A stretch of 64,000 bases of DNA from a virus (IMGVR_UViG_3300031992_004563:265798-329797); one strand, 5' to 3'; shown: positions 30,895 through 58,459, counted from the stretch's first letter. Notes: generated from the letters alone by a model not told the origin. Program-made: numbers and translations.

Positions 30895-30943
30895 TTAACG
30901 ATACAAAATTACTAATATTTCATTATATTAAAAAATAGAAGTT
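30895..30943 (-). promoter_or_regulatory. Conserved promoter motif (coding strand AACTTCTATTTTTTAA-N19-TAATTTTGTATCGTTAA), -7 box TAnnTTTG about 26 nt upstream of ATG
   Basis: One of six near-identical copies upstream of minus-strand genes. Matches the Bacteroides-type -7 element. Confidence 0.55.
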
Positions 30944-30966
30944 AAAATAACTCCTATTTAAAAATG

Positions 30967-30997
30967 TTTGAGGCCATATTATTTCAATGGCCTCAAA
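30967..30997 (-). terminator. Hairpin terminator (TTTGAGGCCAT…ATGGCCTCAAA) after the flotillin gene
   Basis: Inverted repeat downstream of the 31013 stop. Confidence 0.5.
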
Positions 30998-31012
30998 CAA
31001 ATATTAATTGAA

Positions 31013-32965
31013 TTACTTCACCTCTTTAAACTCTACATTATCCTTTTTAGATTTTGTATGTTTTACAGGTTCTTCTGTTGAAGGTGTTTCAACCTCTACT
31101 GGAATTTTTGATTCCTCTGGCTTTGGCAACGATGTTGTAGGTTGATTTTTACCAAGAAGATTCAAAATTTGAGGTTTAAGACCATCATTAACCATGCTAA
31201 CCATTGGAGCAAACTTCTCAAGCCAAGTCTTAGCAAATTCAGCGCTTGTATTCTTATCACCATAAACTGTAACATTGCCAAGTTGAATATGTTCAAGAGT
31301 CTTAGATTGTGCTTCAGCAATACCCTTCCATTGATCAGTCATCATATATTGAACAACTACCTCAGGATTTCCACCAGCGGTTTCAACCATTTGCTTAAAT
31401 GCAAGTGCTGGTGCCAATGCAATTTGTTGTTGCTGTTCAGCCTCTGCCATAAGAGATGCTCGTTTACCCTCAGCTTGTGCAAGCAAAATAGATTTTTCAC
31501 CTTCTGCATCTGCAAGTTTCTTTTTACGAATTGCTTCAGCTTGTGCTTCAGCCTCTTTCAAAATTTTTGCAGCGGCTGCTTCTGCCTCAAGTGTTGCAAC
31601 AGCCTTTGTCTGTTCAGCTTTAATTGTTGCTTGCTCTTTTTCTTTTTGAGCCTTAACAATCATTGTTGCTTGTAACTCGGTTTCTTGAGCTTTAGCCTTC
31701 ATTTCATTAACTTTCACTTGTTGTTCTTGCTCAGTTTGTGCAACGGCCATTCGAGCTTCAACCTTTGCCATACCAGTAACCTTTTCTGCTTCTGCCTCAG
31801 CCTTGCCTGCTTCTGCTTTTGCTTTAGCAACATCAATAGTTGCGGTCTGTTCTGCTACACCTGCCTTTTTATTAGCCTCTGCTGCTTTTTGACGGCGTTC
31901 AGATTCATATTCAGCAATGCTTGCTTGTTTCTTTTGAGTTGCCTCAGAAATCTTTGCCTCTTTTAATTGTTCTGCCTCAGCTGCTTTTGCTTCAGCATCA
32001 GCCTTTGCTTTAGCAACATTAACAGCTGCAATGGATTCTTGCTCTGCTTTTGCAGAATCAGCTTTTTGACCAGCAGTAGCAACTGCAATTGTTTGTTCTG
32101 CCTCAGCGTCGGCAACACCTTCAGCACGTTCCTTTTCAGCTTGCGCCAATTGAATTGCCTGATCCTTACGAGCTTGTGCAACTGCAACCTCTTGTTCCTG
32201 AACTGTTTTAGCAACTGTTGCCAATTGTTCACGCTCAGCCTCTGCAACTTGAATTGCTTCCTCCTTTTTAGTATTGGCAATTTTAATTTTACCTTGCTTT
32301 TCTTGCTCTGCAATATCTGCTTCTGCTTGCGCCTTTGCTTGAGTTGCGGCTTTCTTACCCAAGTTTACAATATAGTTTGCGTCATCATCAATATTAGAAA
32401 TATTAATATTAATAATACCAAAACCAACTTTATTCAACTCCAACTCAATCTTTTGCTTTGCATTCTCAAGGAACTTATTACGGTCAGCGTTAATTTCCTC
32501 AATAGGCATTGTTGCCATAATAGCACGAGTTTCACCAATAAGAATATCCTCAATTTGGCTATCCATTGCTCGTACATCAGAACTTAAGAAACGAGCTGCT
32601 GCATTTTGCATAAGGGTATCAGTTGTTCCAATACCAGTAATCAATGTTACAGGAATAGTTACTTTAATGTTTTGTGAAGATAGACCTGTAATATCGGCTT
32701 TAATCTTGTGAGGTACTAAACTCATCATTTTATATTCCTGGATAACTGGCCATACAAAAGTACCACCGCCATGAATAATTTTTGATGTAAGGATACGATC
32801 TACAGATTTACCATTTTCATCAAATGATTTCTTTGTGCCAGCCTTACCAAATACTACAAGAATTTGGTCACTCGGGCAACGACGATAGCGAGATAAAATC
32901 CAAATAGTTGTCAAAACAACCACAAGTACAATAACTGCTACAGTAATAAAAATTGATACATTCAT
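31013..32965 (-). CDS. Flotillin-like SPFH/band-7 domain protein with a long Ala/Glu/Gln-rich coiled coil
   Basis: N-terminal TM helix, an SPFH-like domain, then an EA-repeat flotillin-type region. 650 aa. Antisense ORFs in this region are low-complexity artefacts. Confidence 0.75.
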   Translation of the reverse strand: MNVSIFITVAVIVLVVVLTTIWILSRYRRCPSDQILVVFGKAGTKKSFDENGKSVDRILTSKIIHGGGTFVWPVIQEYKMMSLVPHKIKADITGLSSQNIKVTIPVTLITGIGTTDTLMQNAAARFLSSDVRAMDSQIEDILIGETRAIMATMPIEEINADRNKFLENAKQKIELELNKVGFGIININISNIDDDANYIVNLGKKAATQAKAQAEADIAEQEKQGKIKIANTKKEEAIQVAEAEREQLATVAKTVQEQEVAVAQARKDQAIQLAQAEKERAEGVADAEAEQTIAVATAGQKADSAKAEQESIAAVNVAKAKADAEAKAAEAEQLKEAKISEATQKKQASIAEYESERRQKAAEANKKAGVAEQTATIDVAKAKAEAGKAEAEAEKVTGMAKVEARMAVAQTEQEQQVKVNEMKAKAQETELQATMIVKAQKEKEQATIKAEQTKAVATLEAEAAAAKILKEAEAQAEAIRKKKLADAEGEKSILLAQAEGKRASLMAEAEQQQQIALAPALAFKQMVETAGGNPEVVVQYMMTDQWKGIAEAQSKTLEHIQLGNVTVYGDKNTSAEFAKTWLEKFAPMVSMVNDGLKPQILNLLGKNQPTTSLPKPEESKIPVEVETPSTEEPVKHTKSKKDNVEFKEVK

Positions 32966-32998
32966 AATTTTTAAATATTTAAAAGTTTATAAAATTTG

Positions 32999-33523
32999 TT
33001 ATACATAAAATTTTCCATTATCAGCTGATATAATAATTACTTCATCGCCAAGTTTATGTTTTTCATTCAATGAATACACTTTAATTTCTTGACCATTGAA
33101 ATCTGGAATATTTACATAATATGCATTTTCTTCATCTGTGCATACAATTGAAACTACACCTTTATGCCCAATAAAATCTTCTGGTGTTTGACCAACAGGT
33201 TCATGCCGTAATTTGAGCAATAATATTCCTATATAAAATAGAATTACTGTAAATGCAATTCCAAGTACAATAGCAATCAAATAATCATACCAAACAAGTG
33301 TACCATTATATGATACTAATGACAACCATCCAGCAAAACCCATTAAGAAATGAATAATTCCTTTAAATGATAGAATATCACCCCATGACAAATCACCAAA
33401 TCCATCACCATCAAAGTCAATATCCGTATCAAAATCAGTTCCACCAAACATGGCAATAAAAAATTGAATAAGGAAAATTGAATAGGCTATAATAGCCAAA
33501 GAATAATAAATTGTTGTTAACAT
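32999..33523 (-). CDS. NfeD-like membrane protein (YuaF/YqiJ-type), the usual partner of SPFH proteins
   Basis: Polytopic N-terminus with a DxDxD-rich loop and a C-terminal soluble OB-like domain. Lies immediately upstream of the flotillin gene. Confidence 0.6.
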   Translation of the reverse strand: MLTTIYYSLAIIAYSIFLIQFFIAMFGGTDFDTDIDFDGDGFGDLSWGDILSFKGIIHFLMGFAGWLSLVSYNGTLVWYDYLIAIVLGIAFTVILFYIGILLLKLRHEPVGQTPEDFIGHKGVVSIVCTDEENAYYVNIPDFNGQEIKVYSLNEKHKLGDEVIIISADNGKFYV

Positions 33524-36049: not shown

Positions 36050-36058
36050 TAATAGTTT

Positions 36059-37212: not shown

Positions 37213-37306
37213 GCTTCATTAATATAAATTTTTGATTTATATATTATATGTTGGTATTTTAGAATGTTTCATTTTTTAATAAATATATTGAAAATAAATG
37301 TATTTT

Positions 37307-40311: not shown

Positions 40312-40698
40312 TTATTTTGATTTTTTAGTTCTTGTTTTCTTTGGTTTTTCTTCTATTTCACCTTTAGCGATTTTCTCAGCTTTTTCTTTTTCTTTAGCCT
40401 CACGTTTCAATCGGCGTTGTTCATCACCCCAGGCTTTTGCACGTTCAACGAGTTCTTTATGTTTTTGCTCAGCTTCTTCAGGGTGTTCACGTTCCCAATT
40501 AATTTGGTCCCAAACAAAACTTCCATAACCAAGTTTCCAACTATGATAATGAGGACACATTAAAAACCAATGGCTATTACCTTTATATTTTTCAATACAT
40601 GCACCTTTCATTATGCATGTTTTCTTACATACATCCTCTTGAAATTGAGGAACATCGCTAGCTTTATAAAAGTCTTTATTTGCCATATTATTCTTCAA
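40312..40698 (-). CDS. Hypothetical protein (Cys/His-rich N-terminus, lysine-rich tail)
   Basis: 128-aa ORF. Confidence 0.45.
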   Translation of the reverse strand: MKNNMANKDFYKASDVPQFQEDVCKKTCIMKGACIEKYKGNSHWFLMCPHYHSWKLGYGSFVWDQINWEREHPEEAEQKHKELVERAKAWGDEQRRLKREAKEKEKAEKIAKGEIEEKPKKTRTKKSK

Positions 40699-41560
40699 TA
40701 AGATTCATTTCTATGAGCATGCTATATAATTTTTTCAAATCACATGCATAGTATCCATAAGAACAATATCCACCATAATAATCAGATTCGCCTCGTTCCT
40801 CTACAGTTACAGTTTCACGATAAAGTTTCTTATATTGAAGCATTGAAATGTTAGGACATACTTCAGTAAGCAAATCATCAAATTCTTTAAATTCGCTTGG
40901 TTGGGCTTCAGCACTAATATTACCACTAGCACCAGTATAATCACCCCATGTCCCGCCAAGACACCATTCTTCACTTCTCATTTCATCTTGTTTCATCCAA
41001 GATTCACGTATTTTAAACAAAGATTCATACTTATTCATTTTATGTACCTCCATTTCTTTAATTACAAATTCAATTTCACTAAATTCTTTAGATAGACCAT
41101 CAATATCAGGTTTTTCAAATTCTGCATGCTTAATAGTAATATGTGCCTTACGATCTTGTTGACGAATGCTATCATTATATAAACATGTATCTCTATCTTC
41201 TTTAAAATATACAAATTGAATTTTAACATGTTCACTATCAAAAATATAATGTGTACATTCATTATAAATGGCTTTAACCAATTTATGTTGTGTTTCATTG
41301 GTTAAAAATAATCCATCTATAATCCAATGATTATAATTTGCATTATGATGTATAATTGAATAGCAAAAACTTGAGTCTCTTAAAACATTTGTAAAAGATC
41401 TTTTCTCACGTTTAAGATAATCTTTATCAAAATCAATGTAGCATGTATTTGAATTAAATGTAGATAAAAACTTTTCACCATTATTGGCACTTTGTGCATA
41501 ATGAGTTTTACCACTACCAGGCAATCCAATTAAAATTTCTACTAATACTTGATTTTTCAT
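40688..41560 (-). CDS. P-loop kinase, polynucleotide kinase-like (Walker A GLPGSGKTH)
   Basis: N-terminal ILIGLPGSGKTHYA resembles PNK/AAA_33-type kinases. Lies immediately downstream of the RNA ligase gene. Promoter motif at 41579-41627. Confidence 0.5.
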   Translation of the reverse strand: MKNQVLVEILIGLPGSGKTHYAQSANNGEKFLSTFNSNTCYIDFDKDYLKREKRSFTNVLRDSSFCYSIIHHNANYNHWIIDGLFLTNETQHKLVKAIYNECTHYIFDSEHVKIQFVYFKEDRDTCLYNDSIRQQDRKAHITIKHAEFEKPDIDGLSKEFSEIEFVIKEMEVHKMNKYESLFKIRESWMKQDEMRSEEWCLGGTWGDYTGASGNISAEAQPSEFKEFDDLLTEVCPNISMLQYKKLYRETVTVEERGESDYYGGYCSYGYYACDLKKLYSMLIEMNLIEE

Positions 41561-41578: not shown

Positions 41579-41627
41579 TTAACGATACAAAATTAATATA
41601 TTTTATTTAAATTAAAAAATAGAAGTT
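41579..41627 (-). promoter_or_regulatory. Conserved promoter motif copy (…AACTTCTATTTTTTAA…TAATTTTGTATCGTTAA…)
   Basis: Lies between the terminator hairpin 41636-41658 and the ATG at 41560. Confidence 0.55.
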
Positions 41628-41635
41628 AAAAATTT

Positions 41636-41658
41636 AAAGGTGGAATTGCACCACCTTT
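41636..41658 (-). terminator. Hairpin terminator (AAAGGTGGAATTGCACCACCTTT)
   Basis: Perfect inverted repeat after the RNA ligase stop codon. Confidence 0.5.
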
Positions 41659-41661
41659 AAA

Positions 41662-43335
41662 TCAATTTTCATCTGGATTTTCTTCACCATATCTTTCTTG
41701 CATTTCATAATCTGATGTAACACCTTTATCCATATCTTCAGCTTCCTTACCAAGGAATTTCAAACATTTAAGTTTGAATGCTTCTGCTACAGGGTCATCA
41801 TTAATTCTAAGAACGATACCTTCACGAGGAAGTTCATTTTTACACATTGGTTCATTTTCTTCCATTCCAAAGTTTTTATCCTTTTTCATTCTAGAAAGAA
41901 CATTTTCATTCCAATGATTTCTAAGATCCAAATCAGGATAAAGATCTTTCATTAAGCCATTATACAAAATTGTAATTGGTTTAATTTTTGAAGCATCATT
42001 AGTATTATTTTCTTTATCACGTTTTTGAAGTGCAGGAATAAGAGTATGCAATGTATAATCATGTACATCTTGAACATTAAATTCATATACATCCCCATTT
42101 TCAAGTACATGTTTAATACGGTAAATCATTAAATAATTATCACCTGTTTTACAACCATAGTCATAAACTTTTCCACCAAGTGATTGGATTCCCGATGTAG
42201 AATTTGTTACATATCCACAAATTTCTCCATAAAATGTCATTCCTTGAGGAATAAAATCTTTAAGGATTTTGTAATATGTTGCCCAAATATCTACTCCATA
42301 AAAACCTCCAGACTTGCCACCATATTTAAATCTAAACAATGATTTAAATTTATCCCAAAAAGTAATTTCTGGTTCATTTTGGTTTTTACGTTTCTTTTTC
42401 TTAAACATTGATTTCAATGTGCTTGTAATATGAAGCCACCATGCATAAATTATTTGGTAAATAATTGCAATCATATTTTGATTTTTAATTACACCACGAG
42501 AGCTATAAATTACATCATAGCCTTCAGTAGTAAATTGCAAAACTTTAGGCAAATATACAAAAGCTTTTTCATACAAACCACCATACTTAGGTTTATGAAC
42601 TTTTACATTACCAAAAATCGCTGATGAACCATGTTCCTTAACGGTAATTGATACTGAAGTTTCAGGTTTAATTCTATTCATTGAACGTTGAAGTTGTTCA
42701 GTATCATAATGAAATGCAAATTGTCCAGGAATCATACGATCATATTTTTTAATTTGCTTTTCATGACGGCCTTTTTTAACTCCACCATTTCGGCCTTTTA
42801 CTTCAGGAACATATGCTTTTACAAACAAACGTTCACCTACAGTATCAAAATCTTCACCAAGATGTGCAGACCAATCAAAATTTTCCAAGTCTGCTTCGTA
42901 TTCACCCATTTGGTATGGAGAAATAAGATAACCCATTGACATTACACCACGAAGTTTCTTCATACGAACACGACAGTTCTTACCAAAATAACCTTTATTA
43001 AGATTCAAATAATGTTGAATCTCTTCTTCAGATGCATTTTGTTTTCTCATTTTTTCCAAATGAGGACCTACATCTTGATAATTTGAATTAAGTGTGATAT
43101 CATCAAATTGATTAGTTGAAGATAGAAACAAACTATCAAGTTGACATTCATTGGCTACATAAATCATATAGCTTCCTGTTTTAACCAAATCTTTACGAAC
43201 TACGATATCTCTGCCTTCAACCATCACTGTGGCAAGAAAATCGGAATTTTCAATTGGTGTCAATTCACCAATTTGAACAACAGTTGCACAATATTCATGT
43301 GACATGTCTTTTGATTGTGATAATACATTTTCCAT
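41662..43335 (-). CDS. ATP-dependent RNA ligase-like protein (N-terminal OB-like domain as in DraRnl/NgrRnl-type ligases; motif I KEHGS; motif IV EGIVLR; motif V KLKCLKF)
   Basis: N-terminus …YCATVVQIGELTPIENSDFLATVMVEGRDIVVRKD… resembles the N-domain of Rnl5-type ligases. Nucleotidyltransferase motifs are present. Confidence 0.55.
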   Translation of the reverse strand: MENVLSQSKDMSHEYCATVVQIGELTPIENSDFLATVMVEGRDIVVRKDLVKTGSYMIYVANECQLDSLFLSSTNQFDDITLNSNYQDVGPHLEKMRKQNASEEEIQHYLNLNKGYFGKNCRVRMKKLRGVMSMGYLISPYQMGEYEADLENFDWSAHLGEDFDTVGERLFVKAYVPEVKGRNGGVKKGRHEKQIKKYDRMIPGQFAFHYDTEQLQRSMNRIKPETSVSITVKEHGSSAIFGNVKVHKPKYGGLYEKAFVYLPKVLQFTTEGYDVIYSSRGVIKNQNMIAIIYQIIYAWWLHITSTLKSMFKKKKRKNQNEPEITFWDKFKSLFRFKYGGKSGGFYGVDIWATYYKILKDFIPQGMTFYGEICGYVTNSTSGIQSLGGKVYDYGCKTGDNYLMIYRIKHVLENGDVYEFNVQDVHDYTLHTLIPALQKRDKENNTNDASKIKPITILYNGLMKDLYPDLDLRNHWNENVLSRMKKDKNFGMEENEPMCKNELPREGIVLRINDDPVAEAFKLKCLKFLGKEAEDMDKGVTSDYEMQERYGEENPDEN

Positions 43336-43691: not shown

Positions 43692-45071
43692 TTAAAATAA
43701 CTCTTCGCTTTTTGGCTTTTCTTTAGTCTTTGGCTTTGTTTCTTCTTCATCCTCAATAGGTGTATTATCCAATGCACATAATTCATTATAGTATTCATTT
43801 TCACCATCGTGGAAGCAGTCATCAACCATTTTTTGTGCAATAGAACGTGCATCACAATTTTTCTTAAATGCATCAAAAATCCTATTGCGTAACTCATCAT
43901 ACTTTTCTTTATTACTTGCAAGCTCATCCATTTGTGCAAGACATTCATCAAGATTTGATAAGTCCTTTTTAATGAATACACCAAGTCCTAATTCAAGTGC
44001 TGTTTTATTTAGACACTTTGTGTTTTCATCATACATACGACATGCATTACCTGCATTCCAATCTAACAATGGAATTGAACCCATTTGAATAATCTCAAAT
44101 ACTGAATATTCAAAATCATCTCCATAACATCCATCAGTTTTAAGATGGAAAAAGTCACATCCAAATGCAGACTTTGCAACGCATCTCATTCCTTCTTCAC
44201 GTTTATATGCATCAAATACATAACACCAACCTTTTTCACGTTTAGGGGTATCAAGCATTGGATCATCATATGCAATACCATTTTCTTCTCTCCACTTTTT
44301 ATCTGAAGCCATTATACAAGCCTTAGATGGAAGACGGTTTCCTTGCTCATCAAATGAATAAAGCAAGTCAGGAATTGTAGATACATTAATTGTACGTTTA
44401 ATACCACGCATTTCCAACTCATAATCATGTGCATAAAATTTATCACGACCACGAAGTAAACGAGTTGGGTCTTTAAATCCAGAATGACGACCAAGATAAG
44501 TTATTCGACGTAATTTCTCATCAAATGGAACCCATTGTTTCTTATCTTCATCTGAATAATTATGTGGAAGAATTAATTGAACAAAACGTTTTCTAAATTC
44601 TTCTTCACCACACGCTGCACAAATTTTTTGTGCTACCATTGCCTTTGGTGCAAATGTAATAATTTTATCAAATGCCAACCAAAATTCTGAATTATGCAAT
44701 AGTGGTCCATAATATGCAGCAAATCCCAATACATTATGATCATTACATACAATTGCTTTTCTTGTAGTAATTTTATTCATAACCAAATCCATCCAGAGAT
44801 TATGATATTTTTCATCTGCTTTTTTCTCCATAATGGAATTAATGATAACCAAATCAGCTTCATTAATATGATTAACTGTATTTTCAGAATAATCATATTC
44901 TACGGCGAATGGAATGCTTTGTGTGCCACCATCCATCTCAGCCTTTTCATGTGCTTTTACATAAATAACTTCAACTTCATGGCCAGCAAGCTTCAAGCCT
45001 TTATTTAATTCTATAACATATCGGGTTACACCAGAACCCTCAATGCGTGCCATCAATTGTACAATTTTCAT
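43692..45071 (-). CDS. Glycosyltransferase, GT4-like N-terminal domain
   Basis: N-terminus MKIVQLMARIEGSGVTRYVIELNKGLKLAGHEVEVIY is typical of GT-B/GT4 enzymes. Confidence 0.5.
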   Translation of the reverse strand: MKIVQLMARIEGSGVTRYVIELNKGLKLAGHEVEVIYVKAHEKAEMDGGTQSIPFAVEYDYSENTVNHINEADLVIINSIMEKKADEKYHNLWMDLVMNKITTRKAIVCNDHNVLGFAAYYGPLLHNSEFWLAFDKIITFAPKAMVAQKICAACGEEEFRKRFVQLILPHNYSDEDKKQWVPFDEKLRRITYLGRHSGFKDPTRLLRGRDKFYAHDYELEMRGIKRTINVSTIPDLLYSFDEQGNRLPSKACIMASDKKWREENGIAYDDPMLDTPKREKGWCYVFDAYKREEGMRCVAKSAFGCDFFHLKTDGCYGDDFEYSVFEIIQMGSIPLLDWNAGNACRMYDENTKCLNKTALELGLGVFIKKDLSNLDECLAQMDELASNKEKYDELRNRIFDAFKKNCDARSIAQKMVDDCFHDGENEYYNELCALDNTPIEDEEETKPKTKEKPKSEELF

Positions 45072-45074
45072 ATA

Positions 45075-46415
45075 TTAAAATAAACTTTGTTTTGTTGCTA
45101 TATTAAGTACTTCTTGTTTTGTATTATCTTGAAATGCTACATTAGAAGTATGTTCTCGATTATTATATTCCCAATTATTCAAAATGTTTACAACTTGAGA
45201 AACAATAAATTTCGCTGTGTTAACTGGAACATTTTGACCAATTTTTGCAAGATTTGTTTTATCTCCATATATAATAAAATCTTCTGGCATACCCATTAAT
45301 GAAAGATATTCCCTTATTGTGCAAAATCTCTTACCAGTATAATGAATCATATTAGGTATTGATCTAAATTGAACAGATGGAAAATAATCCTTAAATACCC
45401 ATGCATCTTCGCCATAATAATTCAAACCTTGTGAAGTTTTTTCAAAGATATGTTTAAAATACTTTTCAACCTTTGCCTTTTCTTCATCAGTGTATTTATC
45501 AGATTCTTTAACAAATTTCAAAAAATCTTCAAGTTTACCAGTTTTCATTATATATGTTATAATGTTTCTTTTATCTTTTATTTCATCTGCCCAATTTTCA
45601 CCATAATTTTTAACATTATAATCAATAGCTGCGTAATTATGAATAAATGATTCTACTGGTGTTTGTTGAGGAGCGTCCTTTGATATTGATTCAAAAAATT
45701 CTGGAATAAGAATAGAATCTTTTTCATAACCAAACAATGGTGGTTTTTGTTCTGTGTTTTTTCCTTGCCATTGAGTAAAAATAACAAATGTTCTTGGTCT
45801 GCGTTGGCAATTATGATGAAGAACTGTATCTGTTTTATAATAAAGAACAGAATATCCTGCATTCTTTGCAATATCCTCCAATGATGCACGAACATCATCG
45901 CCTCTGTCACCAACCAATGTAGGTGCATTTTCAAACACATATACTTTAGGTTTAATAACATTTAAAGTATAATATGTAATCCATTGCATATTACAATTTC
46001 TGGATTCTTTTGTTTCATTAGCAGCTTTAGTAACAACTGATAAACCTGAACATACAGGAACTGCAACAACTAAATCCATATCTGAAAAATCTGGCAATGG
46101 AACATCATCTTCAAGTCCTTTTCGTACTTTTAAATCAGTTGAATGAATGTCCATATCAAACATCTTTCTATTTGTTATTTGATAATATGGAACTTTATAT
46201 CCATCCTTTGTAGATTTAAATAACCATTCTCTTAAATTATATTCATTACCTGCACCTGTTATAATAGGATTATCTTTATCACCAGCTACAGTTATTGCAT
46301 CAAGCCCATCATACGATAAAATCCATTCGGCTTGATGGCCAATGGCTTTTAACGCTCCTATATACATTCCGCCTGTTAATGGTTGAATACATCCCCATTT
46401 AATTTCTTTTGACAT
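45075..46415 (-). CDS. DNA (cytosine-5)-methyltransferase family protein, divergent
   Basis: Motif I-like PLTGGMYIGA, motif IV-like AVPVCSGLS, motif VI YVFENAP, motif VIII CQRRPR, motif X IGQNVPVNTAKFI. Confidence 0.55.
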   Translation of the reverse strand: MSKEIKWGCIQPLTGGMYIGALKAIGHQAEWILSYDGLDAITVAGDKDNPIITGAGNEYNLREWLFKSTKDGYKVPYYQITNRKMFDMDIHSTDLKVRKGLEDDVPLPDFSDMDLVVAVPVCSGLSVVTKAANETKESRNCNMQWITYYTLNVIKPKVYVFENAPTLVGDRGDDVRASLEDIAKNAGYSVLYYKTDTVLHHNCQRRPRTFVIFTQWQGKNTEQKPPLFGYEKDSILIPEFFESISKDAPQQTPVESFIHNYAAIDYNVKNYGENWADEIKDKRNIITYIMKTGKLEDFLKFVKESDKYTDEEKAKVEKYFKHIFEKTSQGLNYYGEDAWVFKDYFPSVQFRSIPNMIHYTGKRFCTIREYLSLMGMPEDFIIYGDKTNLAKIGQNVPVNTAKFIVSQVVNILNNWEYNNREHTSNVAFQDNTKQEVLNIATKQSLF

Positions 46416-48053: not shown

Positions 48054-50045
48054 TTAATTAAATTTTTGAAGTTTATTTAAAATTTGTTTATATGCCAACT
48101 CATCATTAGATGTTATTGGGCGTTTAATTTTATTCTTAAGCTTCCACCATTTAATGGTTTCTTTAATAAGTTCATCGCTTACGTTAGGAACTTTACCCTT
48201 AAGCATTAAAATGAACGAATCCTCCATTTTGCTCTCTTCAACAAGTTTTGCATGAACTGATTCAAGCATTGGCATTATATCCAAATAATCTGCACGGTTA
48301 ACTCGGTTATTAAGATAATATTCAACAGTTTCAAGATCTAATGCATCATAATTAAGAAGTTCACGTTCATCGGTATATACTTTGAATGCTATACGATTTT
48401 TACGTTCAGTTTCTCTCCACCAATCACTTTCTTTAGATGGCATATATTTGATAACAAATTCACCAACCGAATTTTTCTCGATATTATATACTCCAGTACT
48501 TGGTCTAACTGGCAAACCCCAATCATCATCTCTATTACGATTCCAGGAATAGAAACGTTCATCAAATCTTTCTTGAGTTCCAGCCACATAGTTTTCAAGG
48601 AATAATACACGGGTTCCAACCTTAATATCTTTATTAACTTCTTTTACAAACTCCCAATAACTTGGATGTCCATCAGTTAATTTCTTAACTCCTGCATCAT
48701 ATATAAATTCTATATAAGGAGAATCCAAACCATCCGTAAATAGATTAACAGGATTATGAGGAGCAAGAACATCAGAACGATCAAGTAATCCTTGAAGCAA
48801 ACAGAAATTAAATTTGTATCTGTCGATAAAGTCCTCAATTTGTTCTTTTTTGCTTGAAGCCCAATAATGAGTACCAGACTCTTCCAGTTCATTAATAAGT
48901 TTTTGAAGCTCATCTTGTTTTGGGAACAAATATGGATAGATAATCAAATCTGCCCAAATACGATATACATTATCTCCATTACGAATAATAATATATGTTT
49001 GTTTATCTTCCAAATCTAATTCATTTCTGAAATATGGGTTATGAACAAAATGATTTCCAATTCTCATGTCTTTACCACGTTTGCCATAACGACGAGGCCT
49101 AAATACTCGAATACCCTTTTCCGGCAAGAACAAATCAATATGATTATCACGAAGAAGCCATTCATCAAATTGTTCAATTTTCGAAAAATCAAGACCACCA
49201 TCTCTCCAATCACCTACCTCTTCATCCATGTATAATACATCCTGGAAGAAATGAATAGGTGTATCAATAGGTGCAGGCATTCCCTCTTGAATTTGAACAA
49301 TATCCTCGTTAACACCAAGATACAATTCAATTTGTCCAAGAACTCGTTGAATACGTGTTATTTTTCGTTGAACAATAGCAATTGCTTTTTCGCAATCTCT
49401 ACGAATAATATCAAATTTTGCTTGTTGTTCGGCTATACTCATTTTAACAATCGCCAATCGCCGATCCAATTCCTCTTTAAGAGCTAACGTACTTTTTTCA
49501 GCATTTACATACGTCATTTTAGATGACATACTTACCAATGCAGTAGAGTTGTCATCATTCTCATTATCATCAATATCATATTTTTTAAGGAAATCGGTGT
49601 CTTTACCCATAATAGCATTTGTAGCGCCATTTATGTATTCAAGCAACTCTTCTTTATCCTTAAACACAAAATATTTACGACCATCTTCATTGCGATCCAG
49701 ACTTAATGCTTTAATCTCCCATTTGTAATCGTGTCCAAAACCATCACCAACTTGGCATTCTTCACCAGTGAATGGATTAAATCTAACAGCTTTTACATCA
49801 AGATGATATGTATCGAGTTCTACCTCAACCCGTTGATTATCTTTAAACTCGATTTTAGTATCTTTTACCGGTTCAATGGAAATAATACGATAGCAGTATG
49901 GATCGTGCCATTGCACATCCACTATATAATTACCTGGATGGATTTCCTTTTTCCACTCATCTGGATGGGTTTCACGAGCATTAGCGATTTGACCCTCAAT
50001 TGTTGTTAAATCTCTACTCGTGTATTTTTCAATTCCGTTCTCCAT
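48054..50045 (-). CDS. Large hypothetical protein
   Basis: 663-aa ORF preceded by a promoter motif copy at 50069-50110. Confidence 0.5.
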   Translation of the reverse strand: MENGIEKYTSRDLTTIEGQIANARETHPDEWKKEIHPGNYIVDVQWHDPYCYRIISIEPVKDTKIEFKDNQRVEVELDTYHLDVKAVRFNPFTGEECQVGDGFGHDYKWEIKALSLDRNEDGRKYFVFKDKEELLEYINGATNAIMGKDTDFLKKYDIDDNENDDNSTALVSMSSKMTYVNAEKSTLALKEELDRRLAIVKMSIAEQQAKFDIIRRDCEKAIAIVQRKITRIQRVLGQIELYLGVNEDIVQIQEGMPAPIDTPIHFFQDVLYMDEEVGDWRDGGLDFSKIEQFDEWLLRDNHIDLFLPEKGIRVFRPRRYGKRGKDMRIGNHFVHNPYFRNELDLEDKQTYIIIRNGDNVYRIWADLIIYPYLFPKQDELQKLINELEESGTHYWASSKKEQIEDFIDRYKFNFCLLQGLLDRSDVLAPHNPVNLFTDGLDSPYIEFIYDAGVKKLTDGHPSYWEFVKEVNKDIKVGTRVLFLENYVAGTQERFDERFYSWNRNRDDDWGLPVRPSTGVYNIEKNSVGEFVIKYMPSKESDWWRETERKNRIAFKVYTDERELLNYDALDLETVEYYLNNRVNRADYLDIMPMLESVHAKLVEESKMEDSFILMLKGKVPNVSDELIKETIKWWKLKNKIKRPITSNDELAYKQILNKLQKFN

Positions 50046-50068
50046 AATGTAAATCTTTTAAATTTTGT

Positions 50069-50110
50069 GCAAAATTAATACAAAACTATTAATCTAAAAA
50101 ATAGAAGTTA
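50069..50110 (-). promoter_or_regulatory. Conserved promoter motif copy (variant with GCAAAATTAATA)
   Basis: -7 box TAATTTTG lies 26 nt upstream of the ATG at 50045. Confidence 0.5.
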
Positions 50111-53010: not shown

Positions 53011-53427
53011 TTATTTTATTAAATATTTCTTATATGTTTCAAAAATAGATAAAATGTTATCTCTTCCAGGAGGATTGCTTGAATGGCATTCATAATATGG
53101 AAATTCAAATCCATAATCTTCTATAATATCACATATTTCTACTGCAACATTATATCCTGTTTTTTCATCATCACTTATGTATGAGCCTAAATCATGGTCA
53201 AGACAAAAACAATTAACATATTCATTTGGATCTTCTTTTATCCATTTATTGCTCCAATCTACCCATGCATCATATGATTTACACCATACGATTTCAACAT
53301 CATGCCCATCAACCAAAGATAAAAATTCCTTTGGAACAACTTTATTCCAATAAGTAAATAAACTCATTGGATCACGTTGATCATCAATCCAAATTACTCT
53401 GTACTTTGTCTGCTTCATTATTGTCAA
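53011..53427 (-). CDS. Hypothetical protein
   Basis: 138-aa ORF. Confidence 0.45.
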   Translation of the reverse strand: MTIMKQTKYRVIWIDDQRDPMSLFTYWNKVVPKEFLSLVDGHDVEIVWCKSYDAWVDWSNKWIKEDPNEYVNCFCLDHDLGSYISDDEKTGYNVAVEICDIIEDYGFEFPYYECHSSNPPGRDNILSIFETYKKYLIK

Positions 53428-54046
53428 ATATTTTTAAATTCATAAGTTTTTTAACTAATTCATCTGGAATATCTTGAAAATCAATCCAGTCCCATTTAGC
53501 TATCATAAATGAAACCCCATTTTCTCGAGGAGTATCATATGCATCAAATATTCCATTCCAAACTTTGCTACGTTGTCTCCATTGTCTCCATGTTAAATTT
53601 GGATCAGGATCGCCTTGGTCACCATACCAATACTCATCAACAATGGTCATCAATAAATCTATATTTTCATCTTTTCCATAACCAAATTCTGGACCAAAAT
53701 AATTTCCATATAAATTTCCATGATATGGATAAATCATTACTTCAAACGGATAATCAAGTTCTCCTCTTAATCTAGCTTTTTCTGTATCATCACCAATTCT
53801 ATGAAGATCCCTAACAATTTCAAGTTTAACTGCTAGTAAATTCATTTCAGTTGGATCATTTTTATATTTTATAATATCTTTTTTAAGATAATCACTCATC
53901 TTAGAAGCCAACCCATAAAAATTTTTATTAAGCAATGAATTTGCCATATTTTTCAATGCTTGTTTTCTAATAGACTTTAATTGGTCTAAAGCTTTTTCAA
54001 TACTTTTTGTACGAAACTTAATTCCTGTGTATACAGTAAAACTCAT
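53384..54046 (-). CDS. Hypothetical protein
   Basis: 220-aa ORF with a promoter motif copy at 54073-54114. Confidence 0.45.
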   Translation of the reverse strand: MSFTVYTGIKFRTKSIEKALDQLKSIRKQALKNMANSLLNKNFYGLASKMSDYLKKDIIKYKNDPTEMNLLAVKLEIVRDLHRIGDDTEKARLRGELDYPFEVMIYPYHGNLYGNYFGPEFGYGKDENIDLLMTIVDEYWYGDQGDPDPNLTWRQWRQRSKVWNGIFDAYDTPRENGVSFMIAKWDWIDFQDIPDELVKKLMNLKIFDNNEADKVQSNLD

Positions 54047-54072
54047 ATAATTAACATTTTTAAATTTTATGA

Positions 54073-54114
54073 TGCAAAATTAATATATTTCTATTAAATT
54101 AAAAAATAGAAGAT
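54073..54114 (-). promoter_or_regulatory. Conserved promoter motif copy
   Basis: GCAAAATTAATA…AAAAAATAGAAG upstream of the ATG at 54046. Confidence 0.5.
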
Positions 54115-54189
54115 TCCAATTATTATATAAAAACATAGAAGGTTGTTTCACAACAACCCTCTATTTAAAATCTTCTAATATTAACAAAT

Positions 54190-55359: not shown

Positions 55360-55362
55360 ATC

Positions 55363-56835: not shown

Positions 56836-56843
56836 TTTGATGT

Positions 56844-56884
56844 TGCAAAATTAATATATTTCTATTAAATTAAAAAATAGAAGC
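56844..56884 (-). promoter_or_regulatory. Conserved promoter motif copy upstream of cca
   Basis: TTGCAAAATTAATA…AAAAAATAGAAG. The -7 box lies about 12 nt from the ATG at 56835. Confidence 0.5.
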
Positions 56885-56928
56885 TAATTATTTTAGCTCC
56901 TATTCATTATTTTGTTTCACATTATGTA

Positions 56929-57576
56929 TTAGATTACATTAATTTGACAAGATCTCATTACTTCAAGTGCAGCCTCATGTTTTTCAGGAGTAACACCTGC
57001 ACAGCATTTACTATCTACTGTAATCTCCGCAAAATCATATGTAAATGCTTTAAGAATAAGTGCATTAGATACTACACAAATATCTGTACAGAATCCACAC
57101 ATTTCAATCTCCATAGGAATAGGCTCATTTTGATGGTCTTTTTCCAAATTCATAATACACTCAGGCAGAGACACATGATTCTCGAAAAATTCTTTCCATT
57201 GGCCAACAAGTTTCTCCTTAATGCGTCCACCCTCTACAGAGCCAAAAGTAAACTTAGGAATAAACTTGATTTCCAATCCTTGTTTTGCTTTTTCCATTGC
57301 AGCATCTTCAATTTGACTAGTTACTCGCCAACCACATTGAATTTCATATCCTTGATCACATATACAATGCTCTACTGGAAGCTTCTTGCCCTCACGGGTT
57401 TCAAGATAATTATTAAAATGGGTATCCATTGTCAAGAAAATAGCATCACCATCAAATGTCAAAATCTTGTCTACAATATTAGGCACTGCTTTCTGCGCCT
57501 CTGTATTTTCTAATGTTCCATAGATGAAGTCATTCTGAGCATCAACTACAACCAAAACTTTAATCTTGTCTTTCAT
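56929..57576 (-). CDS. pncA: Isochorismatase-family hydrolase, probable nicotinamidase
   Basis: VLVVVDAQNDF and GFCTDICVVSNA match the PncA/isochorismatase fold. First gene of an operon with cca and pncB. Confidence 0.65.
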   Translation of the reverse strand: MKDKIKVLVVVDAQNDFIYGTLENTEAQKAVPNIVDKILTFDGDAIFLTMDTHFNNYLETREGKKLPVEHCICDQGYEIQCGWRVTSQIEDAAMEKAKQGLEIKFIPKFTFGSVEGGRIKEKLVGQWKEFFENHVSLPECIMNLEKDHQNEPIPMEIEMCGFCTDICVVSNALILKAFTYDFAEITVDSKCCAGVTPEKHEAALEVMRSCQINVI

Positions 57577-57578
57577 AA

Positions 57579-58391
57579 TTAAATTAATGTTTTTGCTTTT
57601 TCTAACAAATCTTTAAAACAATTCATAAACTCCTCTGCCATTTCTTGTGTCGGGAATGATAGCATTGTTATCCAACCATTATAGCATTTGTTAACTGTGA
57701 ATCCTTCAGACACTGTAGAAACAATACAATATTTAGGATTTTTATGTGATGTTTCTTTACTCCAATCTGGACGCCAATTGTCAATCCATGCTCTACGCAA
57801 TCTAATTAATCGACCATATGCAATAAATGCATCTGCATCATCCTCGTCAAAGCCATGCGCAAAATGAGGATAATAATGCATATGTTTTTCAAATGGATAA
57901 AAATTATCACAGTAATCTTCCCATGTTTGAGGAACTTTAGGTTTAGGATTTAATTCCTCTTCATCAAAAACTTGAAGAGCAAATTCTTTTGCCTGACCAC
58001 CAGCTTTATACATTTTTTGAGCTTCCTTAAGAGTAAGCCTAATGCATCTTTCTACTATATCAGTGTCACCATATCGATTTTTTACTACATTATCGTCAAC
58101 TATAATTTTAGATGCAATGCGTTTAAGTTGTTCTGCTGACTTAGAATCAATATCTTTAAATGGACTTTGATCAAATTCCAAAATCACTTTTGGCCAATGT
58201 CCATTGCGTTTTGTATTTGTGTTTTTCTCACATTTTTGAATTTCATATGAGTAATAAAATCCTATAGCGCTGCCAACATCAACTCCATACACACGACGCT
58301 CACCATTTGAACATGAACTATCAATTACTCCAATTTTTCCAGTTTTATTAACTTTAACCCTGTCGCCAATTTGAAATTTTTTTTGTGCCAT
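57579..58391 (-). CDS. Hypothetical protein
   Basis: 270-aa ORF with a promoter motif copy at 58411-58459. Confidence 0.5.
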   Translation of the reverse strand: MAQKKFQIGDRVKVNKTGKIGVIDSSCSNGERRVYGVDVGSAIGFYYSYEIQKCEKNTNTKRNGHWPKVILEFDQSPFKDIDSKSAEQLKRIASKIIVDDNVVKNRYGDTDIVERCIRLTLKEAQKMYKAGGQAKEFALQVFDEEELNPKPKVPQTWEDYCDNFYPFEKHMHYYPHFAHGFDEDDADAFIAYGRLIRLRRAWIDNWRPDWSKETSHKNPKYCIVSTVSEGFTVNKCYNGWITMLSFPTQEMAEEFMNCFKDLLEKAKTLI

Positions 58392-58410
58392 AATATATTC
58401 ATTTTAAAAT

Positions 58411-58459
58411 TTAACGATACAAAATTATTCTATTTCTATTAAAATAAAAAATAGAAGTT
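58411..58459 (-). promoter_or_regulatory. Conserved promoter motif copy
   Basis: TTAACGATACAAAATTA…AAAAAATAGAAGTT lies 29 nt upstream of the ATG at 58391. Confidence 0.5.

What the first reader, a model, noticed from the sequence alone, without database searches (positions are those of the whole stretch)
30895..58459. Six copies of a bipartite promoter motif carrying the Bacteroides-type -7 box TAnnTTTG
The six copies lie at 30895-30943, 41579-41627, 50069-50110, 54073-54114, 56844-56884 and 58411-58459. The coding strand reads AACTTCTATTTTTTAA, then ~19 nt, then TAATTTTG(TATCGTTAA or CA), placed 12-30 nt upstream of minus-strand start codons and downstream of terminator hairpins. TAATTTTG matches the Bacteroidota sigma-A -7 consensus, which argues for a Bacteroidota host. 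The conserved upstream box CTTCTATTTTTT does not resemble the host -33 TTTG and may be the site for a phage-encoded factor defining a temporal gene class. All six copies drive non-recoded genes.
Basis: partly seen in the sequence, partly recalled or inferred. Interest (0 to 1): 0.6.

Follow-up and report, generated by a model that had tools for sequence, protein, structure and literature searches.

The report
Host-type promoter family in a megaphage
Six near-identical 40-base promoters carrying the Bacteroidota -7 box sit in front of the standard-code (non-recoded) genes of a Lak-like giant phage; the same design also occurs in Bacteroidales chromosomes, so the host's own RNA polymerase, not a phage factor, most likely reads it.

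Summary
The bipartite pattern occurs 6 times against 0.00 expected, all on the minus strand, 22-28 nt upstream of co-oriented ATGs. The window is a Lak-related megaphage (capsid 64% identical to Prevotella phage Lak) with TAG recoding. About 70 more copies occur in related IMG/VR contigs, with fixed 17-nt spacing. In the variants only the 'nn' of TAnnTTTG changes, as expected for the Bacteroidota primary sigma factor. The motif precedes TAG-free genes (RNA repair, NAD salvage, DNA modification) and tRNA arrays. TAG-recoded genes instead carry a different, T4-late-like motif (AAAATAAATATAAAA). New here: the 'phage-specific' box CTTCTATTTTTT, with the same spacing and a similar spacer, also occurs in gene arrays on chromosomes of Bacteroidales MAGs, most of them RUG-labelled. 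This argues against a phage-encoded reader. In 3 of the 6 window copies the box plus its T-run also forms the 3' arm and U-tract of a terminator hairpin. The published Lak-B genome keeps the T-run, spacing, -7 box and leader, but not CTTCTA. Verdict: an unreported member of a known kind, a host-polymerase early/middle phage promoter class. No transcript data support this; every functional statement is inferred.

The parts
30904..30943 (-). Promoter P1 core AACTTCTATTTTTTA-N17-TAATTTTG. Box at 30930-30941, -7 box at 30904-30911, predicted start of transcription near 30899. Drives ORF 29804-30877.
   Evidence: start site inferred from the 4-5 nt rule in PMC6847099
30933..30959 (-). AT-rich hairpin whose 3' arm is the P1 box, followed by the T-run (-9.8 kcal/mol, z = -3.4).
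30966..30998 (-). G+C-richer hairpin GTTTGAGGCC...GGCCTCAAAC followed by ATTTTT. Likely terminator of ORF 31013-32965.
   Evidence: read directly from the sequence
41588..41627 (-). Promoter P2 core. Box at 41614-41625, -7 box at 41588-41595, predicted start near 41583. Drives the P-loop kinase-like ORF 40688-41560 and downstream genes.
41631..41663 (-). Terminator-like hairpin (13 pairs, -15.9 kcal/mol) ending 3 nt before the P2 module.
50070..50109 (-). Promoter P3 core. Box at 50096-50107, -7 box at 50070-50077, predicted start near 50065. No hairpin upstream. Drives ORF 48054-50045 and a long operon down to the RNA ligase-like ORF 41662-43335.
54075..54114 (-). Promoter P4 core. Box at 54101-54112, -7 box at 54075-54082, predicted start near 54070. 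Drives ORF 53384-54046.
54135..54164 (-). Terminator hairpin ATAGAGGGTTGTT-GTGA-AACAACCTTCTAT followed by GTTTTT (-18.8 kcal/mol). Its 3' arm is a near-copy of the box.
56846..56885 (-). Promoter P5 core. Box at 56872-56883, -7 box at 56846-56853, predicted start near 56841. Drives the CCA-adding enzyme (ATG at 56823) and the NAPRTase gene.
56875..56905 (-). 13-pair hairpin GAATAGGAGCTAA/TTAGCTTCTATTT whose 3' arm is the P5 box; the T-run serves as U-tract (-14.8 kcal/mol, z = -5.7).
58420..58459 (-). Promoter P6 core. Box at 58446-58457, -7 box at 58420-58427, predicted start near 58415. Drives ORF 57579-58391 and the isochorismatase/nicotinamidase-like ORF 56929-57576.
58449..58479 (-). 12-pair hairpin AAATAGAGGTTA/TAACTTCTATTT whose 3' arm is the P6 box (-14.2 kcal/mol, z = -6.6).

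Best explanation
The six sites belong to one promoter class of a Lak-related, TAG-recoding megaphage.

Proposed mechanism:
- The host (Bacteroidales) RNA polymerase with its primary sigma factor binds the -7 element TAATTTTG.
- It starts transcription about 5 nt downstream, at a purine, giving a leader of about 18-24 nt that is A-rich and lacks a Shine-Dalgarno sequence.
- The invariant upstream element (A/G)CTTCTATTTTTTA spans about -43 to -30, with its T-run at the -33 position and a fixed 17-nt spacer. It is an accessory promoter element that the host machinery also reads. It is not the site of a phage protein.
- The class therefore works on naked incoming DNA. It drives the genes that can be translated in the standard code: RNA and tRNA repair, CCA-adding enzyme, NAD salvage, DNA modification and, in relatives, tRNA arrays. 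These are the early or early/middle genes.
- TAG-recoded virion and lysis genes use a separate A/T-rich, T4-late-like motif.
- In about half of the window copies an upstream complement turns the box plus T-run into the descending arm and U-tract of an intrinsic terminator, so one 60-70 nt cassette ends one transcript and starts the next.

Shown here: sequence conservation, placement, spacing, the variation pattern, segregation with TAG content, the bacterial look-alikes, and hairpin energetics.

Inferred: promoter activity, the start sites, which protein reads the box, and the timing of expression.
For: Reality of the motif:
- 6 matches against 0 expected, and the weight-matrix scores are bimodal.

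Family and conservation:
- 44 exact and about 27 variant copies lie in 282 kb from about 10 large IMG/VR contigs. Their capsid protein is 79-80% identical to the window's.
- Spacing is almost always 17 nt.
- The -7-plus-leader pattern is accompanied by the box, exact or with one mismatch, in 26 of 26 evaluable cases.

Placement:
- 64 of 71 unique sites are followed by an ORF of at least 40 codons. The median distance from the -7 G to the ATG is 26.5 nt, interquartile range 25-31.
- At least three of the other seven precede tRNA arrays.

The -7 box behaves as in Bacteroidota:
- Variants are TAATTTTG, TATTTTTG and TATCTTTG, plus five copies ending in A and one changed at the first base. This fits T-12 A-11 T-8 T-7 T-6 G-5 and TAHHTTTG (PMC6847099).
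- In Segatella copri the -7 box occurs at more than 70% of start sites and a -33 box at only 15%.
- Sigma-70-type promoter matches are not enriched: 133 found against 130.6 expected.

The host reads the box:
- Full-length look-alikes such as AACTTCTATTTTTTAATTTGAAAATAAAGTATTATCTTTGC occur in arrays on contigs assigned to Bacteroidales, mostly RUG and UBA MAGs. Of the 15 loci scoring at least 20 bits, 13 are Bacteroidales.
- The two exceptions are a 3-kb, 29% G+C contig in a Clostridium bin (57.8 bits), which looks like a mis-binned phage fragment, and a 22-bit site with no open reading frame after it in a Methanobrevibacter bin.
- The Bacteroidales contigs have 38-53% G+C and carry SRP54, H+-pyrophosphatase, OmpA and FMN reductase genes.
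- A Bacteroides fragilis phage promoter with 'UP elements' is known to work constitutively in uninfected Bacteroides (10.1101/2025.03.18.644028 and PMC11554821).

Gene class:
- In-frame TAG density is 0.27 per 1000 codons in first driven genes, against 5.2 per 1000 after the second motif. The gene counts are 3 of 64 against 8 of 10, p = 4.5e-7.
- Driven genes include a CCA-adding enzyme, NAPRTase, a nicotinamidase-like protein, a kinase, an RNA ligase, a C5 methylase and a glucosyltransferase.

Terminator overlap:
- P1, P5 and P6 form hairpins of -9.8 to -14.8 kcal/mol, z = -3.4 to -6.6.
- 7 of 48 sites have stems of at least 10 bp, against 0.3% in shuffles, p = 1e-10.
- The base before the box (A or G) co-varies with its partner (T or C) in six of the seven long-stem sites. 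The seventh, L016 12466, has T there paired with A.
Against: - There are no transcript data. Promoter activity, start sites and timing are all inferred.
- The box is far more conserved (13-14 nearly invariant positions, rigid spacing) than a -33 or UP-type element usually is, and it lacks the G of TTTG. That is what a dedicated sequence-specific protein would produce.
- In the bacterial arrays the whole intergenic region (about 130 nt) is repeated. Box conservation there could reflect duplication or horizontal capture of a phage promoter rather than independent selection.
- Those arrays hold island-type genes (GmrSD, PD-(D/E)XK, AAA), not housekeeping genes. The box is therefore not shown to be a general host promoter element.
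- The genome scan required the box and TAnnTTTG, so part of the resemblance follows from how the search was set up.
- Only 64 kb of a genome that is probably over 300 kb was seen. A phage sigma factor or activator could be encoded elsewhere; Lak genomes are said to encode sigma factors (PMC6784885).
- Published Lak-B keeps the T-run, spacing and -7 box but not CTTCTA. The hexamer is therefore clade-specific, which fits either a host-clade or a phage-clade reader.
Confidence: 0.6

Rival explanations
1. This is a middle-class promoter that needs a phage protein, in the manner of T4 MotA/AsiA. Host sigma reads the -7 box, while a phage-encoded activator or a remodelled sigma region 4 reads CTTCTATTTTTT in place of the -33 element.
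For: - The box is nearly invariant over 13-14 nt, at a rigid 17-nt distance from the -7 box, while the spacer varies.
- There is no TTTG at -33.
- The CTTCTA hexamer is clade-specific and absent from Lak-B1 promoters that otherwise share the architecture.
- The functions driven (DNA modification, RNA ligase, kinase) are early/middle genes in T4 (own knowledge).
Against: - The same box, spacing and -7 box stand in front of genes on Bacteroidales chromosomes, where no phage is present.
- No MotA, AsiA, sigma or helix-turn-helix family was found among about 60 window proteins. Most of the genome was not seen.
- No other well-placed TAHHTTTG promoter exists in the window that could serve as the earlier class making such a factor.
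Confidence: 0.17
2. A phage-encoded sigma factor, derived from or mimicking the host primary sigma, reads both halves of the motif.
For: - Lak genomes are reported to encode sigma factors (PMC6784885).
- The two halves are strictly coupled, in 26 of 26 evaluable cases.
Against: - The look-alikes on bacterial chromosomes.
- The variation pattern of the -7 box equals that of the host sigma.
- The class drives the TAG-free genes, the ones expected to be expressed before phage factors accumulate.
Confidence: 0.08
3. The box is mainly a terminator part (3' stem arm plus U-tract) and only the TAATTTTG half is a promoter. The bipartite look would then come from packing a terminator next to a promoter.
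For: - In P1, P5 and P6 the box is the 3' arm of a stable hairpin followed by T6.
- Other terminators in the window end in CCTTCTATGTTTTT (54135-54164) and CCTCTATTTTT (about 62352-62380).
- Long stems are enriched, and the closing pair shows compensatory changes.
Against: - About 70% of copies have no complementary 5' arm. P2 and P4 use separate hairpins and P3 has none.
- A stem arm should drift with compensatory changes rather than stay invariant.
- The rigid 17-nt distance to the -7 box has no meaning for a terminator.
- Bacterial look-alikes keep the box without a hairpin.
Confidence: 0.07
4. In addition to being a promoter, the repeated cassette is a recombination substrate that shuffles gene cassettes, like the promoter-early stem-loop (PeSL) elements of T4-type phages. 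This is not exclusive of the best explanation.
For: Comparison with the syntenic relative L013 shows promoter-bounded insertions and deletions:
- P6 is absent there.
- Extra promoter-plus-gene units lie between the pncA-like and CCA-enzyme genes and before the P4 gene.

The bacterial look-alikes also separate variable cassettes in arrays.
Against: - Only one pairwise synteny comparison was made.
- No recombination junctions were mapped.
- Indels at intergenic sites are expected anyway.
Confidence: 0.25

Closest known systems
Bacteroidota primary-sigma (sigma-ABfr) promoters, with -33 TTTG and -7 TAnnTTTG (Bayley 2000 as cited in PMC6847099 and PMC7366714; S. copri in 10.1101/2024.04.05.588293)
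   Same: - An exact TAnnTTTG, followed by C/T then A.
- No G at the two free positions.
- An A/T-rich spacer with an A-tract near -18.
- A short A-rich leader without a Shine-Dalgarno sequence.
- A purine at the expected start, 5 nt after the G.
   Different: - No TTTG at -33. Instead there is an invariant 13-nt CTTCTATTTTTTA at a rigid distance.
- Host promoters have a weak or absent -33 box and a spacer of variable length.
Bacteroides fragilis phage promoter P_BfP1E6 (Whitaker 2017, as described in 10.1101/2025.03.18.644028 and PMC11554821)
   Same: - A phage promoter with a host-type -7 box plus upstream ('UP') elements.
- Stronger than host rRNA and rpoD promoters.
- Active in uninfected Bacteroides, so it is read by host polymerase alone.
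   Different: - Its sequence could not be retrieved here, so no direct comparison was made.
- It comes from a small siphovirus, not a recoded megaphage.
T4 early promoters and promoter-early stem-loop (PeSL) cassettes of T4-type phages (own knowledge: Arbiol, Comeau and Krisch 2010)
   Same: - Many near-identical, extended host-sigma promoters paired with stem-loops.
- Located between small early genes in plastic regions.
- Cassette indels are bounded by the repeat.
   Different: - A different sigma type and a different sequence.
- Here the stem-loop can overlap the promoter's upstream element.
- A role in recombination was not shown.
T4 middle promoters (host -10 element plus a MotA box at -30, sigma appropriation by AsiA/MotA; own knowledge)
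   Same: - The host downstream element is kept.
- The host upstream element is replaced by a conserved box at a fixed distance.
- Similar gene functions are driven.
   Different: - The box is also present on host chromosomes.
- No MotA or AsiA relatives were found in the window.
T4 late promoters, TATAAATA read by gp55 (own knowledge); compared with the second motif only
   Same: AAAATAAATATAAAA contains ATAAATA (7 of 8 positions). It sits 15-35 nt before the ATG of TAG-recoded or structural genes, after terminators.
   Different: - The first T is an A.
- No gp55 homologue was looked for.
- Only 13 sites were examined.
[quoted passage not shown]
   Same: Arrays of co-oriented short genes of low G+C, separated by a conserved intergenic sequence.
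   Different: - No tyrosine recombinase appeared among the 25 most frequent of 43 matched families.
- The gene content looks like defence-island genes (GmrSD, PD-(D/E)XK, AAA) rather than immunity genes.
- Membership is not shown.

Membership tests
Bacteroidota sigma-ABfr-type promoter | A -7 element TAnnTTTG with T-12, A-11, T-8, T-7, T-6 and G-5 nearly invariant. | tested here: met
   All six window copies read TAATTTTG. In the variant copies from relatives, changes are confined to the nn positions, apart from five G-to-A changes at the last base and one first-base change.
Bacteroidota sigma-ABfr-type promoter | No G at -10 or -9 (TAHHTTTG). | tested here: met
   The nn positions read AT, TT or TC in all copies seen; rule from PMC6847099.
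Bacteroidota sigma-ABfr-type promoter | A -33 element TTTG upstream of the -7 box. | tested here: not met
   A T6 run followed by A occupies the position, with no G. The -33 box is found at only 15% of S. copri start sites and was not detectable in F. johnsoniae, so this feature is weakly defining.
Bacteroidota sigma-ABfr-type promoter | Transcription starts 4-5 nt after the -7 element. | not testable with these tools
   No RNA data are available. A purine lies 5 nt after the G in all six copies.
Bacteroidota sigma-ABfr-type promoter | Intergenic position, co-oriented with and shortly upstream of a gene. | tested here: met
   All six window copies qualify. So do 64 of 71 sites overall, with a median of 26.5 nt to the ATG.
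T4-type middle promoter (activator box plus host downstream element) | The box is specific to the phage and read by a phage-encoded activator; MotA/AsiA-like genes are present. | tested here: not met
   The box occurs on Bacteroidales chromosomes. No such Pfam or PHROG family was found in about 60 window proteins. The rest of the genome was not seen.
T4-type middle promoter (activator box plus host downstream element) | A box at a fixed distance replaces the host upstream element. | tested here: met
   The spacer is 17 nt in all six window copies and in nearly all relatives.
Promoter-early stem-loop (PeSL) cassettes | A repeated early promoter joined to a stem-loop. | tested here: met
   Hairpins lie next to 5 of 6 copies.
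Promoter-early stem-loop (PeSL) cassettes | The repeats bound gene cassettes that differ between related genomes. | tested here: inconclusive
   One synteny comparison (window against L013) shows promoter-bounded indels. Junctions were not mapped.
Intrinsic terminator | A stable stem-loop directly followed by a U-tract at the end of a transcription unit. | tested here: met
   P1, P5 and P6 use the box and T-run for this. P2 and P4 have separate hairpins. P3 has none.
rAID arrays (for the bacterial look-alikes) | A tyrosine recombinase at the head of the array. | tested here: inconclusive
   None appears among the 25 most frequent families in 54 ORFs of 16 loci. The loci are only 8 kb each, and 18 further matched families were not listed.

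The most novel reading that the evidence does not exclude
The identity between the phage promoter and the promoter of variable island genes on Bacteroidales chromosomes (a GmrSD-type nuclease of the kind that cuts modified DNA, PD-(D/E)XK nucleases, AAA ATPases) may be functional cross-wiring rather than shared use of ordinary host polymerase. Either the islands have captured the megaphage promoter so that their genes fire when the infecting phage supplies or remodels the factor that reads CTTCTATTTTTT, which would be an infection-triggered defence switch. Or the phage mimics a host regulon controlled by an unknown host protein that binds this box.
Probability: 0.07. Interest if true: 0.8.

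Novelty: new member of a known kind. Interest (0 to 1): 0.45.

Why it matters
- Lak-type megaphages are uncultivated, and no paper found here describes their promoters.
- This work gives two candidate promoter classes that separate with genetic code. A host-type class precedes genes readable in the standard code. A T4-late-like class precedes TAG-recoded genes.
- That makes the proposed link between stop-codon recoding and the timing of the lytic programme directly testable on metatranscriptomes.
- The promoter look-alikes, found only in Bacteroidales genomes, offer a host-assignment clue that does not depend on CRISPR spacers.
- A compact 40-nt promoter that is probably strong, with or without a built-in terminator, could be useful for engineering Prevotella and other Bacteroidales.

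Tried and rejected
- **Near-identical phage genomes:** megablast of 20 kb against 50,697 phage records found nothing. The clade is not in GenBank phages.
- **Lak-A1, 42 kb around the capsid gene:** no copy and no repeated promoter-like motif. This is probably a structural region. The whole Lak genome was not scanned.
- **Inverted repeat inside the spacer** (TTCTATT-N9-AATAGAA in P4-P6), considered as an operator for a dimeric protein: rejected as a general feature, because P1-P3 and the relatives do not keep it.
- **Metagenome scan with the window-specific spacer:** only one true relative, a 4-kb contig (AUXO012536726.1, 94.5% protein identity over the P4 gene product), and three chance hits.
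- **rRNA or tRNA operon promoter as the identity of the bacterial look-alikes:** rejected. Rfam found no rRNA or tRNA downstream, and the downstream genes are island-type proteins.
- **rAID membership of those arrays:** not established. The key paper, PMC6938237, is not held.
- **Sequence of the B. fragilis phage promoter P_BfP1E6:** could not be retrieved.
- **Sigma-70-type promoters:** not enriched.
- **Literature search for the box sequence:** returned only unrelated primers.

Full report
**1. What is there**

Reading the six intervals on the minus strand shows the same module each time: (A/T)(A/G/T)CTTCTATTTTTTA, then 17 variable A/T-rich bases, then TAATTTTG. The tail is TATCGTTAA in P1, P2 and P6, and CA in P3-P5. 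An ATG follows 22-28 nt after the G.

- Exact CTTCTATTTTTT occurs six times in 64 kb, only at these sites.
- The bipartite pattern gives 6 matches against 0.00 expected.
- A weight matrix trained only on related contigs scores the six at 31-49 bits and everything else at 4.5 bits or less.
- Of 73 TAHHTTTG octamers in the window, 11 are intergenic, and only these six lie 22-28 nt upstream of a co-oriented start codon.

The spacer is 16-17 nt, not about 19. Hairpins precede five of the six copies, not all.

**2. Context**

- The window has about 29% G+C.
- Its major capsid protein (62406-63926, minus strand) is 63.6% identical over its full length to that of Prevotella phages Lak-A, Lak-B and Lak-C.
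- No near-identical DNA exists in 50,697 phage records.
- Reading through TAG joins fragmented plus-strand ORFs into long ones: 4451-6601, 19148-21727 (33 TAGs) and 25763-27907 (16 TAGs).
- A tmRNA and a tRNA-Arg gene are present.

It is therefore a Lak-related, TAG-recoding megaphage.

The six promoters head minus-strand operons between 28 and 58 kb. Recognisable products are a CCA-adding enzyme, a nicotinate phosphoribosyltransferase, an isochorismatase/nicotinamidase-like protein, a P-loop kinase, RNA ligase-like proteins, a C5 DNA methylase and an alpha-glucosyltransferase. Single matches to PTH2, cREC_REC and thymidylate-synthase-like families also came from a pooled scan of 40 window proteins, but were not assigned to an ORF.

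In-frame TAG density separates the blocks:

| Block | In-frame TAG |
|---|---|
| Minus strand, 38.5-58.4 kb | 2 in 6144 codons (both probably artefacts of start choice) |
| Plus strand, 14-28 kb | 13 per 1000 codons |

**3. The same module elsewhere**

An exact-pattern scan of IMG/VR returned 44 matches in 30 loci from about 10 large contigs of up to 262 kb. Their capsid is 79-80% identical to the window's. A matrix scan of those loci adds about 27 variant copies, with no scores between 5 and 20 bits.

- Spacing is 17 nt in nearly all copies.
- The -7-plus-leader pattern is accompanied by the box, exact or with one mismatch, in 26 of 26 evaluable cases.
- 64 of 71 unique sites are followed by an ORF of at least 40 codons. 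The median distance from the -7 G to the ATG is 26.5 nt, interquartile range 25-31.
- At least three of the other seven precede tRNA arrays.
- In the variants the -7 box reads TAATTTTG, TATTTTTG or TATCTTTG; five copies end in A and one differs at the first base. So essentially only the two 'nn' positions move, and never to G.

That pattern matches the one described for the Bacteroidota primary sigma factor (T-12 A-11 T-8 T-7 T-6 G-5; TAHHTTTG; start 4-5 nt after the G; PMC6847099). In Segatella copri the -7 box marks more than 70% of start sites and a -33 box only 15%. Sigma-70-type promoter matches are at chance level.

**4. A gene class tied to the genetic code**

First genes downstream of the motif have 0.27 in-frame TAG per 1000 codons, and 3 of 64 genes contain any.

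A second motif, AAAATAAATATAAAA, lies 15-35 nt before the ATG of plus-strand genes at 4103, 15183, 18069 and 21747, and of the minus-strand gene at 14005. It contains ATAAATA, which is 7 of 8 positions of the T4 late promoter TATAAATA (own knowledge). In the window and relatives together, 8 of 10 genes behind this motif contain TAG, at 5.2 per 1000 codons. Fisher's exact test gives p = 4.5e-7.

So two candidate promoter classes separate with recoding status.

**5. The upstream box is not phage-specific**

A scan of one genome per species (185,579 species) with the box, a 16-18 nt gap and TANNTTTG gave 118 loci, mostly single chance hits in many phyla.

- Fifteen loci score at least 20 bits with the phage-trained matrix, and 13 of them come from Bacteroidales MAGs: RUG225, RUG456, RUG552, RUG14423, RUG12580, RUG152, RUG716, UBA2712, UBA4333 and a reindeer Paludibacteraceae genome. 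These score 21-44 bits.
- The two exceptions are L142, a 3-kb contig of 29% G+C binned as Clostridium that scores 57.8 bits and is probably a mis-binned phage fragment, and L139, a 22-bit site in a ruminal Methanobrevibacter bin with no ORF downstream.
- 'RUG' stands for rumen uncultured genomes (own knowledge).
- The Bacteroidales sites read AACTTCTATTTTTTAATTTGAAAATAAAGTATTATCTTTGC. This is close to the IMG/VR phage consensus even in the spacer (AATTTGAATAAAAAGTATTAATTTTGC).
- They occur two or three per contig, in front of co-oriented genes: a GmrSD-type nuclease, PD-(D/E)XK, AAA and unknown proteins.
- The contigs reach 264 kb, have 38-53% G+C, and carry SRP54, H+-pyrophosphatase, OmpA, S41 peptidase and FMN reductase genes. 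They are bacterial chromosomes.

No phage factor is available there, so the simplest reading is that host machinery reads the whole promoter, box included.

There is precedent. A Bacteroides fragilis phage promoter with upstream 'UP elements' is constitutively active, and several-fold stronger than rRNA and rpoD promoters, in uninfected Bacteroides (10.1101/2025.03.18.644028 and PMC11554821).

Caveats:
- The scan demanded the box and the -7 box.
- In the bacterial arrays the whole intergenic region of about 130 nt is repeated.
- The genes there are island genes, not housekeeping genes.

**6. Clade specificity**

In published Lak-B1, three promoters in 40 kb keep the T-run, the spacing, TATCTTTG and a leader GTATTGTTAATAAAAA. 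CTTCTA is replaced by other bases. The architecture is therefore family-wide, while the hexamer is specific to the window's clade and to the Bacteroidales look-alikes.

**7. Overlap with terminators**

- In P1, P5 and P6 an upstream complement (AAATAGGAGTT, GAATAGGAGCTAA, AAATAGAGGTTA) pairs with the box. The result is a 12-13 bp hairpin followed directly by the T-run, at -9.8, -14.8 and -14.2 kcal/mol with z = -3.4, -5.7 and -6.6.
- Across 48 sites, 7 have stems of at least 10 bp, against 0.3% in shuffles.
- The base before the box (A or G) changes together with its partner (T or C) in six of the seven; in the seventh (L016 12466) it is T paired with A.
- P2 and P4 have separate G+C-richer hairpins, and P3 has none.

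The box is invariant whether or not it is paired, so promoter function comes first. The terminator is built onto it in a subset of copies.

**8. Plasticity**

The relative L013 keeps the order P6-gene, pncA-like, CCA enzyme, NAPRTase, P4-gene at 49-85% protein identity. It lacks P6 and has extra promoter-plus-gene units inserted. This resembles the promoter-early stem-loop cassettes of T4-type phages (own knowledge). The resemblance rests on one comparison.

**9. Mechanism proposed, with confidence 0.6**

- Host holoenzyme binds the -7 box and the upstream T-run/box.
- It starts at a purine about 5 nt after the G (predicted near 30899, 41583, 50065, 54070, 56841 and 58415).
- It makes short A-rich leaders.
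- The class serves genes that must be expressed from incoming DNA and translated in the standard code.
- Recoded genes use the second motif, presumably with a phage-specified factor.

The rivals, in order of weight: a phage activator of the MotA kind (0.17), a phage sigma factor (0.08), and a purely terminator role for the box (0.07). A recombination role (0.25) is not exclusive of the main model.

**10. Novelty**

No paper retrieved describes Lak promoters, and the box sequence appears only in unrelated primers. This is an unreported member of a known kind, not a new kind of system. All functional statements are inferred from sequence; no transcript data were available.

Noticed in passing
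window 4103-4117 (+), 15183-15197 (+), 18069-18083 (+), 21747-21761 (+), 14020-14034 (-); also L007, L010, L011, L016, L023, L027: A second repeated motif, AAAATAAATATAAAA, contains ATAAATA (7 of 8 positions of the T4 late promoter). It lies 15-35 nt before the ATG of TAG-recoded or structural genes, often just after a hairpin. Eight of 10 genes behind it contain in-frame TAG. It is a candidate late promoter class.
   Followed up: partly
window about 3174-3194 (+) and about 37274-37294 (+), both in divergent intergenic regions: A third repeat, TTTTAATAAATATATTGAAAA, occurs twice upstream of plus-strand genes (3237 and 37298). Its function is unknown.
   Followed up: no
L061, L085, L100, L103, L104, L106, L114, L118, L140, L141, L153 (Bacteroidales MAG contigs): A conserved intergenic repeat of about 130 nt (...GTCGCTCGTAAGCAA..TATGGCTAATTAGGGCTAATTGCAAAAAAGATT, then the promoter look-alike, then the leader AATCGGAAAGTGCCCAATGCCGAACAAAGACGGGCGAAAA) separates variable island genes (GmrSD_N, PDDEXK_4, DUF2779, AAA and unknowns). 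It resembles the 'conserved intergenic motifs' described for rAID arrays, but no recombinase was seen.
   Followed up: partly
window 43692-45071 (-), 45075-46415 (-); L061 2943-4676: The P3 operon encodes a T4-like DNA alpha-glucosyltransferase and a C5 cytosine methylase, and a thymidylate-synthase-like protein is present somewhere in the window. This suggests modified phage DNA. In one bacterial locus the look-alike promoter drives a GmrSD-type nuclease, an enzyme family that targets glucosylated DNA (own knowledge).
   Followed up: no
window 54075-54112, 56846-56883, 58420-58457 (-): In P4-P6 the spacer holds AATAGAA, an inverted copy of the box core (TTCTATT-N9-AATAGAA). With the upstream complement this gives three half-sites in P5 and P6. 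It is not conserved in P1-P3 or in relatives, and is unexplained.
   Followed up: partly
window 54135-54164 (-) and about 62352-62380 (-): Terminator hairpins unrelated to a promoter also begin with ATAGAGG and end with CC(T)TCTAT plus a T-run. The box sequence therefore recurs as a terminator arm.
   Followed up: partly
window about 14035-14066 (-): GGCTCGGTAGCTCAATGGACTAGAGCATAG looks like the 5' half of a tRNA (acceptor and D arm), cut off by the late-type motif. Neither ARAGORN nor Rfam calls it.
   Followed up: no
L022 4625-4765 and 4820-5260; L024 5650-5800; L022 5620-5776: In relatives, some copies of the promoter are followed not by ORFs but by apparently structured RNAs ending in tRNA-like T-arm/acceptor sequences, and by a 157-nt tRNA match with a long insertion. 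Apart from that tRNA match, Rfam finds no family at gathering score.
   Followed up: partly
L154 (Lak-B1, MK250020.1 record positions about 388315, 389867 and 393256): Published Lak-B has a sister promoter class, TTATTTTTT(T)-N-TATCTTTGTATTGTTAATAAAAA. It shares the T-run, spacing, -7 box and leader with the window's motif but lacks CTTCTA.
   Followed up: partly
window 15232-21727 (+): Three adjacent genes encode an AAA ATPase (924 aa), a protein with a metallopeptidase-like HExxH motif (its only family match is a PHROG annotated as HNH endonuclease), and an 859-aa protein. The 859-aa protein's Q/A/D-rich low-complexity region holds 33 in-frame TAG codons, the densest recoding in the window.
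   Followed up: no
window 3651-4052 (-), 13158-13232 (-): A phage-encoded tmRNA (tag peptide GEDEYAMAA) and a tRNA-Arg(TCT). No suppressor tRNA lies within the window.
   Followed up: no
L034 1-54 (IMGVR_UViG_3300010389_000001): The contig begins with a Nextera adapter sequence (TCGTCGGCAGCGTCAGATGTGTATAAGAGACAG) fused to a truncated copy of the promoter. This is an assembly artefact in the public record.
   Followed up: no
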